DNA from: Dendrobates tinctorius
Lineage: Eukaryota
Reading direction: 5' to 3'
Length of the DNA stretch: 64,000 nucleotides
Assembly (NCBI RefSeq): GCF_039654945.1
Contig: NW_027361917.1
Coordinates: forward strand, 58,652,001-58,716,000
Shown here piece after piece: positions 5,962 through 20,900 of the stretch. Positions within the stretch are counted from its first letter, which is position 1. Each line of letters begins with the position of its first letter. A program made the position numbers.

Positions 5962-8900
5962 TGGTAGACTTTTATGCAGATGATAAAATGGAAAAAAGGA
6001 CAACAAATATGCATATACCTAATTACATAATAAATAAAACTAACCCATAGATATGTTGCATAATATTAAAATTAATTGCTGCAATAAATTAAACAGTAAA
6101 AAACAGTAGTCTATTAAGTAGACATTCAATCTTCCCATAAAAGTAAAAGCTATCCAGTTAAGAGCAATGGGTAATTGCTTTACATATGCGATCTCTATTT
6201 AGAAATTTTGTTCCTTTTATTTTGCTCATAAATTTGGACAACAGCAATTGATCAGTACTACTAACTGAGAAGTTGTCAGCTATATTTACCATGTTTTCAG
6301 TACCTTAAAATATTAAACAAAAATTATTAATTAAAATGTGTCCTGCATTTAGCTTTTAATAATTAAAGCACAAATAACGGAATCATAATGCAATGTCATT
6401 TATTAGAGAATTATCAGAGAACTCGATTTTTCCTTTTAATTGTAATAAAAAAGCATAAAAAAGATGAAATATTTGTATTTCAAAATTGAAGCCAGCCTTG
6501 AGAAGAGCTTCTGCGACTATCTCAGTGACATTTCCTTTCGTGTTACTCTGTCAGCTTATTGTTATCATTGGATTAATGGGTCTTAATGACACAAACAATT
6601 AATCTTCATCTTTTTAAGAACTCTGAGCAGCCATTGGGCCGTGCTACATATCTTGTCATGAGGCAATAGAAGTCTTTCTCTTTGGATAATTCAGCACAAA
6701 AATAAAATTAAATTAAAAGCGTTTCATCATTTTATTAAGTACATGTCACTGACATGTGATATGTGGCACAGACGTTACAATGGGCGTTAACATTCATATT
6801 TTCCAATAGTTCTCATTTAAAGAGAATGTTGACGCGCCCACCAGGGCCGTGGAGTACCTGGAATCGGACAGGACTGTTCTATGGGGGAGGTCACGGGGCC
6901 GTGATCCATTTCCGTGGCCCTGGCCGTGTCATAAAATAGAGGATAGTTATGTGGGATTTAATTGTGACGCCACCAGTGGTGTTTGGCAATGGGTGGTGGA
7001 CGCTGTGGTTTTGGCTGATGGTGACGCAGCAAAGATAGTTCAGTTCCCCACAGGTAGAGCGGGGCCCCAAGGCAAATATATTTGATTGTTGAGATGGTGA
7101 ACGTTGGGGTGCAGAGAATAAGTGAGGGACATAGAGAGGTGCAGTTTTCTTTGCCTTTTACTTGAAAGTAGATGCAATCAGGGGTACCAATTACAGATGA
7201 CAAATTGAGTCCGGCTTGCCTGGAGGCATTCAGGGGATCAACCCTGCTTGGAGGGGTTGGGGACCTTCATTCTGCGCTCTCTTTTTGGCTCCCTGCTGCT
7301 TGTAGCTTAGCTGCGGCCCTCTCCTGTGTGATGATTTCTAACCTGTATGGCAGACAGTGTGAGCCTATATCACGGACACTGTCCTTTTCACTGTCAGCCC
7401 CGGGCTCTTGGTCTGCTGTCCTGCATTCAGGTGTTCGGTGTGGCCAGGGAGTTTGCAGTACCCTGCCCTCCAGATTCGGCTGTCAGGGCGTACAGCACCC
7501 GCTGGCGTCCCTTTTTATCAGCACTCCGCTCTGGGGTCAGCTATATGCAATTTTAGTTCCCCAGAGCCCTTGTCTCTGCTCCTGTCCCTTCCCTCTCCAC
7601 AGACCAACTGCCAACTTTCCTCTCTCACTGTGCGGTCATGAGCTCCAGCTGGCTCCCGTTTCCATAACTCTCCTGTTTACTCTGTCAGCTGACTTCTTTC
7701 TGACTCACTAAGCCCACCTGCTGGCCAGAATTTATAAGGAAGCTCCCCTTTCTGGCCTGGAGCAGGAATTGACATGTACACTGTTACCTGGCATGGAGAC
7801 CCCCTGCCGCCAGGCATGACATCACCCCCTAGAGGGAGGCATTATCACTGTTTCAACTGGACTCTGGGTTGCCACAACCTGTCAGCATGATTTTGTAATG
7901 TAAAGACATGGCTAGATGGCACTGTAATACTGATTAAATTGGTACCTTTTTTAAAGAAATTCACTTTGTTGTTCCTCTTTATTCACCATTTAAATTTTTC
8001 TGCTAATTAGATTTTGGTGCACAGGGGCCAGACTGTACCATGGGTCTTCTCCTCCCTGTGTGTGATTCCTGGCCACCTCTGCCTGCTTCTGGTAAGTCAT
8101 TCAGACAGCGGAGGTGAGTGGAGGCTCTGCGGTAGCACAGAAACAGAGGAGGGGATGCAATGTACAGTCCGGCCCCTGTGCACCGAAATCTTATAAGCAG
8201 AAAACTTGAATTTGCCATTAAAGAACAACAAAGTGGATTTCTTAAAAAAATGTATCAATTAAATCTGTATTTAGTGCCATTGTAGTCATGTCTTTACATT
8301 ACATTACAATCAGTTGGGTAGGTGGAGTTATTCAGAGTTCAGCATTCAGATAACTGGTAGTTCTGTAACAGATAAAACTGTGATTTTGTCAAAACTACAG
8401 AAAGCAGCATAATAAGTAATACATCACTGAAATCAACATCTCTGCCTCTATATTATGCTATGCTGTTCTCATATGGGGCAGCAAGAACTCTTTAGAGGGA
8501 TTCTGTTAGTAGATTCAATCTTTACAAGCAGTTTATATGGGCATGGAGGTCATAGAAAATTGATTAAAATGATACCTAAGTGCTATACAAAGGAATATAC
8601 ACTGGCGCTACTAATAGAAAAACCGGGCTGCTGGAACCTAGACAGAAACTGTGCTTCTACTGTCAGGAAAGGGTTAAATGAATAAATGAAGGAAAAATAT
8701 TCAGGATTGAGAGTCCTCAGTAGTTGATACCTTTTAATGGCTAACTGAAAAGATGGTAATACATTGCAAGCTTTCGAGACAACTCAGGTCTCTTCATCAG
8801 GCTAGACTAATACAAAATCTGAAGTCACATATTTATGCACAATACAGCCTAGAAAAAATGCAATAGATAAGACAAGTGACGTGAAGCAGAACTATCAATA

Positions 8901-17900: not shown

Positions 17901-20900
17901 TACAGCACCTGTCCAGACAAGTACAGGGATTCCCTAGCGAGGAGACTTATTTGATTGTTTTCAATGTTGGGACAGCAATTTTTGGGGAGCACTATACTCT
18001 GGAGAATGATAGATGGGGCCCACCATACACTGGAACATTCCAAAGGTGGACATCAGACACTGGAGCAGCATTTACAGGGCCCATTATACACTAGAGCATT
18101 AGAAATGGGGCCCATTATGTTTGGAGCATTATTTGGGCCCATAAGACAGTGGAGCTTCATCCATGGGGACCAACATATACTGTAGCATTATGTGGAGCTC
18201 ATCATATACTGTTTCAAACATTATATGGGACCAATGATTCTGTATGGAGAAACAGATGGGCCTCGTCATGAGATGTAAAAAGTGAGGTATTTTTCATTGT
18301 ACTATACCGCTATTTATCTGCCGTATCGGAGCATGATGAGTTGTGGTATGTGTTAAAGGGGGCGCTCTTTCGCCCAGGGCACATGAAAACCTGCAGCCAG
18401 CCCTCCCCCCCACAACTTTAGCCAAATAACCCCCATTTTTCAGTGCGTAACTTGTATTATGAAGTTAATTAAGGTTGACAAGCTTAAGTAAGAAGAATTG
18501 ATGCTTTTGGCATTCAAATGGGCACTGTAGGTGTGTTTCCTGTCCTCCTCTCACTGCCGACTTTTATTCCCCATTGACTTACATTGGGTTTCGTGTTTCG
18601 GGACGACCCCGACTTTTCCCTATAATCGGACGATCTTGCTCGACCCGACTTTTGGAAAAGTCGGGTTTCACGAAACGAAACGCGACCCTAAAAAACCAAA
18701 AGTCGCTCAACTCTAGTTAAAAGTAGTTAATAAATACATGGATGGAGCATATTAAATCATATGCAGATGGAGCATGTTAAATTTTATGCGTATAGTCCCT
18801 CTTTTTTTTATATGTATTTGATTTTATTCATATTAAAATGCTAAAATGTTTTTTAACATTAGTATAATAAAGTTATGGTTTTTAATATTTCTAACTATTT
18901 GCAATATTACTTCCTATTCATATTAGGTATACATTAAGGCTGTTCTTTCCCCCATTTTTAATTGCTCATTACAGTCAAATCACTATCTAGCCATTTATTG
19001 GGAGGGTGGAGGAAGGTGATCAATCCAAGAGTTAGACAGGTGTTTGACCATACACACACTATATATGACAGCTAGACTAGGTGGGCGGTAACCCTGGCGG
19101 TAACCCTGACGTTTGCCTTCGAAACGTGTAGGTCTGTAGCCTTAGCCTGTGACGTCACATACTGTCAGTGCATGACAGTGTCTGCCATTATTCAGCCAAG
19201 CATCCAGAACGCTACCGGCCGGAGCGGTCCTGGCTCTGCCCGGCTCCTTTTACTACTCGCACCCCAGTTATCTGAGCTCATTCACCTCATCCTCCCAGCC
19301 TGTCACACACTTATCCAGTGCCACTGTGGATTATTCACTGTGATCGGCACAGCACCTCCTTGCAGCTGAAGCTAGGGTAAGTCGGCATAAGTTCCGTCAC
19401 TGTTCATTAGTTAATTATTGCTGGCTTGGTAGATTTCTATCTCCTGCACACTCTGGGGTCTATGTGTGAGGTGCAGATCATTTGCTTTCACTTTCATTTC
19501 TACTATTACTGAACTGTCCTATGCAACTTGGAGCGCAGTACCTTCCTTAATTTATTCATTGATACCTAAATGTAGTGGGTTGAAACATACTGATAATATA
19601 CAGCTCTGGCAAAAATTAAGAGACCACTGCACAGTTTTATAAAGATCAGCTTCTCTACATGTCTGGCAGCCATTCCATTCCAGTGTCAGTTGTATTCCAA
19701 CCAGAGTACACCTCATTCTATCTAATGTGCTTCTGATTAGGTGATCATCATCTGAACCAAATCTTATATAATGAAGGAAATTATAAATAAAGCCCTGCTG
19801 TGGTGTTCACAATCCTTTTGCAATAGGACAAGCTGGATGGCAAAACAAGTGCTAGTAATATCCCAAAAGTAATAAGAATGAAAAAATAACTTAATCATGC
19901 CAAAGGAGTTGAAAAGAAAAGTCTTGAGTGAGGAAAAGAAGGGCTTAATTCTGACTTTACTAGCAGAGGGATACAGTGAGCATCATGTTGCCTCCATCCT
20001 TTAAATTTATAAGACAGCAGTCCATTACAACAAGGTCAAGCAGCAGACATTGGGGACAAAAAAGCTACAGACTAGCAGAGGGCAAAAACGACTCTCCACT
20101 GACCGGGATGACCATCATCTTATTTGAATGTCACTCAGCAACCGCAGGATGACATCAAGTGACCTTCAAAAGGAATGGCAAATGGAAGCTGGGGTGAAGT
20201 GAACGGCAAGAACAGTTTGAAACAGGCTCTTAGAGGCAGAGCTCAAGTCATGTAAAGGTAGAAAAAAGCCTTTTATCAATGAGAAGCAAAGGATAGCCAG
20301 GCTGAGGTTTGCCAAAGACCATAAGGATTGGACCATAGAGGACTGGCGTAAGGTAATCTACTCTGATGAGTTCTAATTTTCAGCTTTGCCCAACACCTGG
20401 TCATCAAATGGTTAGACAGAGACCTGGAAAGGCATACAAGCCACAGTGTCTTGCACCCACTGTGAAATGTGGAGGATCGGTGATAATCTGGGGATGCTTC
20501 AGCAAGGCTGGAATTGGGCAGGTTGATCTTTGCGAAGGACGTATGAATCAACCCGCATACAAGGTTATCCTGGAAAAACAGTTGATTCCTTCTGCTCAGG
20601 CAATGTTCCCCAACCCTGAGGACAGGTTTTTCCAGCAGGACAATGCGCCATGCCACACAGCTAGGTCAATCAATGTGTGGATGAAGGACCACCACATCAA
20701 ATCCCTGTCCTGGCCAGCCCAATCTCCAGACCTGAACACCATTGAAAATCTCTGGAATGTAATTAAGAGGAAGATGGATAGTCACAAGCCATCAAACAAA
20801 GAAGAACTGCTTACATTTTTGTGCCAGGAGTGGCATAAGGTCACCCAAAAGCAGTGTGAAAGACTAGTGGAAAGTATGCCAAGACACATGAAAGCTGTGA

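What the first reader, a model, noticed from the sequence alone, without database searches (positions are those of the whole stretch)
8583..19559. Three unrelated PLE families in one window share one grammar: hammerhead, splice donor, termini in the intron, inverted end, 12-16 bp TSD
Seen: 8583-19559, 8695-9238 and 22476-48789 show no evident sequence similarity. Each nevertheless has a minimal hammerhead with an extra A after the core and a palindromic stem III, a downstream donor-like site (AGG|GTAAGT at 9416/19377, AAG|GTATCA at 8730, CAG|GTATTA at 27846), both termini downstream of that donor, an inverted terminal copy and a long TSD. All three main bodies are on the minus strand. Inference: priming occurs in unspliced leader-intron sequence at the 3' end of read-through transcripts, which would also explain intron retention in PLEs.
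Basis: partly seen in the sequence, partly recalled or inferred. Interest (0 to 1): 0.68.

Follow-up and report, generated by a model that had tools for sequence, protein, structure and literature searches.

The report
Three Penelope-like retrotransposon insertions in frog DNA
The window holds three unrelated Penelope-like retrotransposon insertions that all show this class's already described insertion signature, while the proposed splice-donor and intron part of the shared pattern is not supported by the sequence alone.

Summary
C (22476-48789) is a young Neptune-like Penelope-like element (PLE). It has five near-identical units with intact 1045-codon frames and an inverted leader copy, and it sits in a Tc1-like transposon with a 16-bp TSD. 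B (8695-9238) is a 5'-truncated PLE that keeps the last ~45 codons of the GIY-YIG endonuclease, with a 12-bp TSD. A (8583-19559) has no PLE coding sequence. About 7.7 kb of it is a nested hAT transposon with its own 8-bp TSD, so A counts as PLE-like only through its hammerhead and its architecture.

A min-hammerhead descriptor hits only these three families (5 loci); 2 of 200 shuffled windows gave any hit. The donor-like sites of B and C are at chance density (one per 117 nt per strand). A's donor is better (one per 2560 nt).

The shared pattern is hammerhead in the pseudo-LTR, ends downstream of it, an unequal "tail", an inverted 5'-truncated copy and a TSD. This is the published PLE signature, explained by internal initiation of reverse transcription on both nicked strands. 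Whether the ends lie in an intron is untested here. One published case (Chlamys-3_cRei) fits that idea; Penelope and the anole element PAc do not.

The parts
8583..19559 (-). Element A: an ORF-less, hammerhead-bearing PLE-type insertion. It is about 3.3 kb once nested B and the hAT are removed.
   Evidence: Inverted arms and boundaries. No PLE coding sequence by tblastn with 121 PLE proteins or by a profile HMM.
8571..8582 (.). Left copy of A's target-site duplication. The right copy is 19560-19571; 11 of 12 positions match.
   Evidence: Read.
9676..9722 (-). Min-hammerhead of A's left arm: CUGACGA core, unpaired A, 4-bp helix II, helix III one CpG change away from a palindrome, predicted cut after 9682.
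   Evidence: The right-arm copy (about 19096-19140, plus strand) lacks 10 nt of the core and helix II.
9408..9419 (-). Donor-like site of A (first GT base at 9416). The same site is in the right arm at 19377 on the plus strand.
   Evidence: 8 of 9 consensus positions; such sites occur once per 2560 nt per strand. No RNA evidence.
18763..19559 (+). A's inverted terminal copy (right arm). It ends 94 nt short of the left arm's end.
8583..8676 (-). A's 94-nt extension, present at the left end only (tail-like asymmetry).
   Evidence: Comparison of the two arms.
11046..18715 (+). Nested hAT DNA transposon: 13-nt terminal inverted repeats, 8-bp TSD (11038-11045 / 18716-18723), BED zinc finger and hAT dimerisation domains, and tandem repeat arrays of 133-bp and 124-bp units.
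   Evidence: BED 8e-12, hAT dimerisation 3.8e-11; I11, D1, D2.
8695..9238 (-). Element B: a 5'-truncated PLE nested in A's left arm. Its 12-bp TSD is at 8683-8694 / 9239-9250.
   Evidence: The empty site is seen in A's right arm.
9026..9172 (-). B: the last ~45 codons of a GIY-YIG endonuclease, followed by the stop codon.
   Evidence: tblastn best E 4.4e-06 (P0063), and eight PLE proteins match this place in all. Translation. Profile HMM E 1.9e-04 against 36 translated frames.
8762..8806 (-). Min-hammerhead of B: CUGAUGA core, unpaired A, 5-bp helix II, 4-nt palindromic helix III, helix I of only 2 bp, predicted cut after 8768.
9163..9238 (+). B's inverted terminal copy: 30 nt matching 8692-8721, plus a 46-nt extension beyond the other end.
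   Evidence: I6.
22476..48789 (-). Element C: an array of a Neptune-like autonomous PLE. Five units of 5051 or 5012 nt each carry an intact 1045-codon frame. There is also a partial unit and an inverted leader copy.
22460..22475 (.). Left copy of C's 16-bp TSD, inside a Tc1-like transposase gene. The right copy is 48790-48805.
   Evidence: P0044 residues 1-103 and 96-113 match on the two sides of the insertion.
27885..27927 (-). Min-hammerhead of C in type-a leaders (also at 22834-22876 and 42960-43002): U3-A8 core variant, unpaired A, 3-bp helix II, 8-nt helix III self-complementary with G-U pairs, 4-bp helix I, predicted cut after 27891.
   Evidence: The core variant is described in PMC4209133.
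27379..27846 (-). C: the proposed 5'-UTR intron (donor-like site at 27846, AG at 27380-27379). It contains both insertion ends in unit coordinates (27527 and 27406). The start codon is at 27358.
   Evidence: The donor matches 6 of 9 positions (chance density). All 11 upstream ATGs lie here. No RNA evidence.
48296..48789 (+). C's inverted terminal copy (unit 27899 to 27406). It starts inside hammerhead helix III and runs 121 nt further than the array's other end.
   Evidence: I1, I3.
32679..32906 (-). Type-b leader variant (also at 37691-37918 and 47754-47981). A 228-nt piece of the element's own ORF (= 26420-26647) replaces 260 nt directly after helix III. This removes the 3' strand of helix I and the type-a donor.
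   Evidence: D1.

Best explanation
The finding describes three independent insertions of unrelated Penelope-like retrotransposons in an anuran genome. The closest proteins are from dendrobatid frogs, so this is not human DNA.

Each insertion carries the standard PLE insertion signature, and the most likely mechanism is the published one. The element's GIY-YIG endonuclease nicks both target strands 12-16 bp apart, which produces the TSD. Each nick then primes reverse transcription. Copying does not start at the RNA's 3' end but at internal sites in the leader of a downstream pseudo-LTR copy, 73 to about 540 nt past the hammerhead. Using two alternative start sites gives ends of unequal length: 46, 94 and 121 nt here, against the published 30-40-nt 'tail'. 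The cDNA made on the second strand is short and ends up as the inverted, head-to-head terminal copy. The hammerheads are the usual dimer-type minimal ribozymes of PLE pseudo-LTRs.

Shown here: the boundaries, TSDs, inverted copies, hammerhead motifs, and the coding identity of B and C. Inferred from the literature: priming on both strands and internal initiation.

The donor-like sites are not needed for this account, and for B and C they are no better than chance. A's 11-kb span is mostly a later hAT insertion.
For: - TSDs and empty sites.
- Inverted copies and unequal ends.
- Hammerheads: 5 loci in the three families and nowhere else in the window; 2 of 200 shuffles gave any hit. Dimer folds form an intermolecular helix III.
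- C's protein: 303 relatives at E<=1e-10 among the 8000 candidates scored. Of 13 aligned proteins, 12 match Pfam RVT_1 and 6 match GIY-YIG, and the Y, G, E, N and Cys columns are invariant.
- B's endonuclease tail.
- C's terminal leader, the leader of unit U1 and the inverted copy share a base (at 27601 in the unit) that the other four leaders lack, as expected if both ends were copied from the same kind of RNA 3' region.
- Literature: internal initiation at two sites, extension of both strands, and the tail lying between the start sites (PMC11167929, main text). Inverted 5'-truncated copy and a tail at either end (PMC8557442, passages; PMC3846280, passages). The unpaired nucleotide, the G10.1-C11.1 pair, the palindromic helix III, the U3-A8 core, and paired hammerheads on opposite strands (PMC4209133, parts 1-2 of 4).
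Against: - A has no PLE coding sequence, so its assignment rests on one decayed hammerhead and on architecture.
- The end asymmetries (46-121 nt) exceed the published 30-40 nt. The distances from hammerhead to end in A and C (364-543 nt) are much longer than in PAc (about 85-92 nt).
- TSDs of 12-16 bp are longer than the 8-10 bp reported in rotifers.
- Helix II of C's hammerhead has only 3 bp and helix I of B's only 2 bp. None was matched by an Rfam model.
- No other copies of any family could be examined, so start-site preference rests on two ends per family.
- The 26-kb array could owe part of its size to later unequal crossing-over or to assembly.
Confidence: 0.8

Rival explanations
1. In each family the leader holds a real 5'-UTR intron whose donor lies just after the hammerhead. 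Reverse transcription is primed inside that intron on unspliced read-through RNA. Only intron-bearing RNAs can therefore be copied, and this is why PLEs keep their introns.
For: - A's donor matches 8 of 9 consensus positions and is kept in both arms, which are 5.6% diverged.
- In C an AG lies 20 nt before the start codon, which is conserved among relatives.
- The 468-nt interval has 31% G+C and holds all 11 upstream ATGs of the 532-nt leader. Unspliced RNA starting at or before the hammerhead would therefore translate poorly.
- Chlamys-3_cRei has an Iso-Seq-supported 398-bp 5'-UTR intron that spans the pseudo-LTR/body boundary (PMC8557442, section 10).
- Searches of the paper library found no paper stating this priming-in-the-intron explanation.
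Against: - The donors of B and C match 6 of 9 positions. At one such site per 117 nt per strand, about 0.6 are expected in B's 73-nt interval and about 3 in C's 364-nt interval.
- C's acceptor has a weak pyrimidine tract (0.58).
- With only 64 nt of proposed exon, finding zero ATGs there is not unusual.
- Three of the six leaders in the array lack the named donor, yet sit beside intact ORFs.
- In Penelope the intron lies upstream of the hammerhead and the element's end is at the ORF start. In PAc the start sites are inside the ORF (PMC4209133, PMC2377424, PMC11167929).
- A host gene was moved with all of its introns, and priming in one leader intron does not explain that (PMC3846280).
Confidence: 0.2
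2. A is not a PLE product. It would be some other composite or foldback element whose long inverted arms happen to hold a hammerhead-like string, possibly linked to the hAT inside it.
For: - There is no RT or endonuclease remnant in A.
- Its hammerhead needs one mismatch in helix III, and the copy in the other arm is broken.
- Part of A's interior (10620-10898) resembles the LTRs of the LTR retrotransposon at 53.4 and 61.1 kb at 73-79% identity.
Against: - The hAT has its own terminal inverted repeats and an 8-bp TSD well inside A, so it is a later guest.
- A's arms face outward, have unequal ends and a complex head-to-head junction, and are flanked by a 12-bp TSD, exactly as in B and C.
- The two arms' helix III differ from a perfect 6-nt palindrome by one CpG transition each.
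- The descriptor expects 0.01 hits per window by chance.
Confidence: 0.1
3. The multi-unit array and the inverted ends are products of later rearrangement or of misassembly, not of the insertion mechanism.
For: - The five units differ at only 6 single positions plus the a/b leader swap.
- Published work warns that such PLE structures are hard to assemble (PMC8557442, PMC3846280, passages).
Against: - Perfect TSDs flank the whole structures, inverted copies included.
- The same architecture recurs in three unrelated elements of different ages.
Confidence: 0.05

Closest known systems
Neptune-clade Penelope-like elements of fish and amphibians (canonical EN+ PLEs)
   Same: [quoted passage not shown] It is arranged in tandem with pseudo-LTRs, has a min-hammerhead in the pseudo-LTR, an inverted 5'-truncated copy and a TSD. 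Its closest proteins come from frogs.
   Different: No tree was built, so the clade call rests on the linker motif and on the top hits. The array is unusually long (five full units). Half of its leaders carry a captured piece of the element's own ORF in place of part of the hammerhead.
PAc (Poseidon of Anolis carolinensis), Frangieh et al. 2024
   Same: The ends lie downstream of the hammerhead, there are two alternative end positions, and both target strands are used. B's ends, at 73 and 119 nt after the cut, are close to PAc's roughly 85-92 nt.
   Different: In PAc the hammerhead overlaps the ORF start and the start sites lie inside the ORF. In C the ends lie 48 and 169 nt upstream of the start codon and 364-485 nt after the hammerhead.
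Chlamys-3_cRei gene model (Craig et al. 2021)
   Same: It has a 5'-UTR intron that spans the pseudo-LTR/body boundary, so the insertion end lies inside an intron.
   Different: That intron is supported by Iso-Seq, whereas here there is no RNA evidence. Chlamys elements have an N-terminal endonuclease and mostly lack hammerheads.
Penelope of Drosophila virilis
   Same: It has pseudo-LTRs, inverted terminal repeats, a 34-37-bp optional terminal repeat, a 5'-UTR intron and a min-hammerhead.
   Different: The order is donor, intron, hammerhead, then the end at the ORF start. Here the order would be hammerhead, donor, then the end.
Metazoan min-hammerheads of PLE pseudo-LTRs (Cervera and De la Pena 2014)
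   Same: All three motifs have the unpaired nucleotide after position 9, the G10.1-C11.1 pair and a self-complementary helix III. C has the U3-A8 core covariant reported for Cercyon. Hammerhead pairs on opposite strands occur as described.
   Different: Helix II is shorter than the 6-8 bp typical of the published families (3-5 bp here). Cleavage was not tested.

Membership tests
Penelope-like elements (EN+) | Reverse transcriptase domain of the PLE type | tested here: met
   C only. RVT_1 is weak on the window's protein (2.8e-04, below Pfam's cut-off), but the protein aligns end to end with PLE proteins, and 12 of 13 aligned proteins match RVT_1. B is truncated before the RT. A has none.
Penelope-like elements (EN+) | C-terminal GIY-YIG endonuclease | tested here: met
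   C: no Pfam GIY-YIG hit on the window's own protein at E<=10, but 6 of 13 aligned relatives match PF01541 and the catalytic columns are invariant. B: the last ~45 codons match. A: not met.
Penelope-like elements (EN+) | Pseudo-LTRs from tandem or partial-tandem copies | tested here: met
   C: units of 5051 or 5012 nt. A and B are single truncated copies, so this does not apply to them.
Penelope-like elements (EN+) | Adjacent inverted 5'-truncated copy, with an optional extension ('tail') at one end | tested here: met
   Seen in all three elements. The extensions are 94, 46 and 121 nt, against the published 30-40 nt.
Penelope-like elements (EN+) | Hammerhead motif in the pseudo-LTR | tested here: met
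   A's motif is decayed and B's has a weak helix I.
Penelope-like elements (EN+) | Target-site duplication flanking the whole unit | tested here: met
   12 (11 of 12 matching), 12 and 16 bp.
Neptune clade | Extra Cys-rich (CX2-5CxxC) linker between RT and endonuclease; placement in an RT tree | tested here: inconclusive
   The linker is present, with invariant Cys columns. No tree with reference clades was built.
Type I hammerhead ribozyme | Conserved core, three helices, cleavage after H17 | tested here: inconclusive
   Core and helices are present under a relaxed descriptor and in dimer folds. There is no Rfam hit. Cleavage cannot be tested with these tools.
Spliceosomal 5'-UTR intron | Donor, branch point and acceptor used in RNA | not testable with these tools
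   Only consensus counts were possible: 8/9 (A), 6/9 (B) and 6/9 (C) for the donors, and a weak acceptor tract in C.
Non-LTR retrozymes | Short (about 170-400 nt) ORF-less hammerhead units in tandem | tested here: not met
   A and B are single copies with an inverted end. B carries ORF remnants.
hAT transposons (nested guest in A) | Short terminal inverted repeats, 8-bp TSD, BED and hAT dimerisation domains | tested here: met

The most novel reading that the evidence does not exclude
In vertebrate Neptune-like PLEs, and in the family of A, the sites where reverse transcription starts lie inside a true 5'-UTR intron just downstream of the hammerhead. Only RNA left unspliced in the downstream leader could then be copied. 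A copy made from spliced RNA would lose its internal start site and could not move again. This would tie intron retention to the priming mechanism itself. A second new reading: the palindromic helix III of the hammerhead doubles as the joining or switching point for cDNAs. In C, both the inverted-copy junction and the ORF-fragment capture fall within those 8 nt.
Probability: 0.2. Interest if true: 0.6.

Novelty: new member of a known kind. Interest (0 to 1): 0.3.

Why it matters
How PLEs insert, and why they keep introns, is only partly understood. If the ends really mapped inside a used intron in several unrelated families, that would give a mechanistic reason for intron retention that can be tested with existing RNA-seq and insertion-end maps. 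As it stands, the window gives clean, TSD-bounded examples of the known PLE signature, including a very young, apparently intact Neptune-like array that could serve as a vertebrate test element. It adds no new principle.

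Tried and rejected
- Rfam at gathering score (0 matches) and at E<=10 (10 matches, none a hammerhead). The curated models do not catch these minimal motifs.
- The plain core pattern CTGANGA..GAAA gave 9 matches against 4.52 expected, and 5 of 100 shuffles reached 9. It is not discriminating on its own.
- My strict descriptor (helix II of at least 4 bp, perfect palindrome) found only B. The first run of the relaxed descriptor timed out with no output and was rerun.
- Search for PLE coding sequence in A. 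tblastn with 121 proteins gave 977 HSPs, 38 of them outside C and none credible in A. The 105-codon open frame in A's arms has no start codon and no significant match. A profile HMM also found nothing in A.
- Weak tblastn matches of PLE RT regions at 5120-5239 (E 0.2-0.9) were not supported by the profile (E about 4-5) and were dropped.
- Comparing sequence and folds around the six ends for a shared start-site motif showed only A/U-rich ends and no common hairpin.
- Building family consensus sequences or mapping the ends of other copies was impossible.
The proposed exon 1 sequences are non-coding, so there was nothing to search exon by exon, and the joined step was left out.
- Paper supplements were closed. 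The hammerhead family alignments and descriptors in the supplements of PMC4209133, and the end maps in the supplements of PMC11167929, could bear on how typical these motifs and distances are.

Full report
**What the window is.** It is a repeat-rich stretch of eukaryotic DNA with no N. The proteins closest to its largest ORF come from dendrobatid and other frogs: Dendrobates tinctorius at 83% identity over 65% of the query, then Ranitomeya, Anomaloglossus and Rhinoderma. It is therefore not human, and nothing was withheld on that ground.

**Element C (22476-48789).**
- Five stop-to-stop frames of 1045 codons lie on the minus strand, in units of 5051 or 5012 nt.
- The protein starts at 27358. 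The opening residues are conserved in six of the eight relatives whose N-termini were printed, so the leader upstream is non-coding.
- It aligns over its whole length with PLE proteins. Of 13 aligned proteins, 12 match Pfam RVT_1 and 6 match GIY-YIG. The window's own protein scores only a weak RVT_1 match and no GIY-YIG match. The catalytic Y, G, E and N columns and three Cys of the linker before the endonuclease are invariant. The Cys-rich linker points to the Neptune clade (motif as quoted in PMC8557442); I built no tree.
- The array interrupts a Tc1-like transposase gene and is flanked by a perfect 16-bp duplication. A Tc1 protein from another frog reads straight across the site.
- The right end (48296-48789) is an inverted copy of unit positions 27899 to 27406. 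The left end stops at unit position 27527. The two ends are therefore 121 nt apart in unit terms, and lie 169 and 48 nt upstream of the start codon.
- The units differ at 6 single positions plus a leader swap, so the structure is very young.

**Element B (8695-9238).**
- It sits inside A's left arm and has a perfect 12-bp duplication. A's other arm shows the empty site.
- On the minus strand it encodes the last ~45 residues of a GIY-YIG endonuclease followed by a stop. The best tblastn E-value is 4.4e-06, eight PLE proteins match the same place, and the profile HMM gives E 1.9e-04.
- About 220 nt further on lies a hammerhead, and 73 nt after its predicted cut is the element's end.
- The other end is a 30-nt inverted copy that runs 46 nt further.
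- B is therefore a genuine 5'-truncated PLE of another family.

**Element A (8583-19559).**
- The 11-kb span is misleading. 11046-18715 is a hAT transposon on the plus strand, with its own terminal inverted repeats, an 8-bp duplication, and BED and hAT dimerisation domains.
- Without the hAT and B, A is about 3.3 kb. It consists of a 2.5-kb minus-strand copy and an inverted copy of about 0.8 kb. The arms are 94.4% identical, which makes A much older than C.
- A is flanked by a duplication matching at 11 of 12 positions. The left arm runs 94 nt beyond the right one.
- I found no PLE coding sequence. The open frame in the arms has no start codon and no relatives. A is PLE-like only through its hammerhead and architecture, so it may be a truncated or a non-autonomous copy.

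**Hammerheads.**
- Rfam sees none, and the bare core pattern is not discriminating.
- I wrote a descriptor from the published min-hammerhead features. It requires a CUGANGA or U3-A8 core, an optional unpaired base, helix II opening with G-C, GAAA, a self-complementary helix III running from A15.1 to U16.1, H17, and a short helix I.
- It hits only B, A's left arm and the three type-a leaders of C. In 200 shuffled windows the mean was 0.01 hits, and 2 of 200 had any hit. I relaxed the descriptor after seeing the motifs; the strict version found only B.
This feature, the palindromic helix III and the U3-A8 core are all described for PLE hammerheads (PMC4209133).
- A's two arms each differ from a perfect 6-nt palindrome by one CpG transition. 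The right arm has also lost 10 nt of the core and helix II.
- Dimer folds form the intermolecular helix III.

**Donor-like sites.**
- They are at the stated positions.
- In this window, sites matching at least 6 of 9 consensus positions occur once per 117 nt per strand, and sites matching at least 8 of 9 occur once per 2560 nt.
- B's and C's sites score 6 and A's scores 8. Between the hammerhead and the nearer end, about 0.6 (B), about 3 (C) and about 0.2 (A) such sites are expected by chance (my arithmetic).
- For C there is modest extra support. An AG lies 20 nt before the conserved start codon, and all 11 upstream ATGs of the 532-nt leader fall in the proposed 468-nt intron.
- Against this, the proposed exons total only 64 nt, and the acceptor's pyrimidine tract is weak.
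- Three of the six leaders (type b) lack the donor altogether.

**Comparison with what is known.** Each structural item is in print:
- tandem pseudo-LTRs, an adjacent inverted 5'-truncated copy, and a 30-40-bp tail at either end (PMC8557442, PMC3846280; passages read);
- TSDs of 8-10 bp and palindromes at inverted junctions (PMC3846280);
- hammerheads in pseudo-LTRs and on opposite strands (PMC4209133);
- internal initiation of reverse transcription at two adjacent sites downstream of the hammerhead, on both nicked strands, with the tail lying between the two start sites (PMC11167929, main text read).

The intron layout varies between families. In Penelope the intron precedes the hammerhead and the element's end is at the ORF start (PMC4209133; PMC2377424, passages). 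In PAc the start sites are inside the ORF. In Chlamys-3_cRei a 398-bp 5'-UTR intron spans the pseudo-LTR boundary (PMC8557442, section 10).

Earlier explanations of intron retention are an antisense or unspliced template (PMC3846280) and selection against intron-less copies that express poorly (PMC2377424). It does not explain the rotifer case in which a host gene was moved with all its introns (PMC3846280).

**Verdict.**
- The 'grammar' is the known PLE insertion signature, seen here in three unrelated families, one of which (A) is unproven as a PLE.
- The intron reading stays open at roughly one in five.

Noticed in passing
window 32679-32906, 37691-37918, 47754-47981 (type-b leaders) and 48295/48296: In three of C's six leaders, a 228-nt piece of the element's own ORF (= 26420-26647, 100% identical, same orientation) replaces 260 nt. 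The replacement starts within a 3-nt overlap at the end of hammerhead helix III, 1-4 nt before the predicted cut. The head-to-head junction of the inverted copy also falls in the same 8-nt palindrome. Two separate rearrangement joints inside 8 nt suggest template switching or cDNA pairing at helix III.
   Followed up: partly
window 27601 in the unit (column 300 of the alignment): The terminal partial leader, the leader of unit U1 and the inverted copy read AATAAA here, while the other four leaders read AATACA. Both insertion ends thus share a variant that most internal units lack. The b-type units also share one ORF position (column 1993).
   Followed up: partly
window 11046-18715: A 7.7-kb hAT transposon with BED and hAT dimerisation domains split over two frames (12460-14271 and 14231-16375). 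It carries tandem repeat arrays of 133-bp units (repeat finder span 11501-12864) and 124-bp units (16611-18026), and a long hairpin at 16541-16642 that weakly resembles a plant miRNA model.
   Followed up: partly
window 21161-22475 and 48790-49101; also 20357-20926 and 2515-2679: C's host is a Tc1/Sleeping-Beauty-like transposon whose terminal inverted repeats (21161-21369 / 48892-49101) are 100% complementary. More Tc1-like transposase fragments lie just upstream and near 2.6 kb.
   Followed up: partly
window 52592-61400: An LTR retrotransposon with roughly 1.1-kb LTRs (52592-53709 / 60244-61400, 86-96% identical). It encodes a PNMA/gag-like frame, RT and RNase H (54115-57811).
   Followed up: no
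window 10620-10898 against 53401-53696 and 61084-61376: A's interior resembles part of that LTR retrotransposon's LTRs at 73-79% identity over 74-95 nt (four matches). This could be a captured fragment or a shared module.
   Followed up: no
window 28294-28565 and the same place in each unit; 9630-9640: C's pseudo-LTR has two 129-nt repeats upstream of the hammerhead, each with CRE-like palindromes (TGACGTCA). A has one such site between its hammerhead and its donor-like site. They may be promoter elements.
   Followed up: no
window 7926-8271: A foldback of about 350 bp (arms 7926-8069 / 8131-8271, 75-88% complementary) lies just left of A. It may be a small inverted-repeat element.
   Followed up: no
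window 63094-64000 and 62806-62923: A long compound microsatellite of 11- and 18-nt units runs off the window's end. Beside it is a 118-nt hairpin with a weak miRNA-model match (43 bits against a 130-bit cut-off).
   Followed up: no
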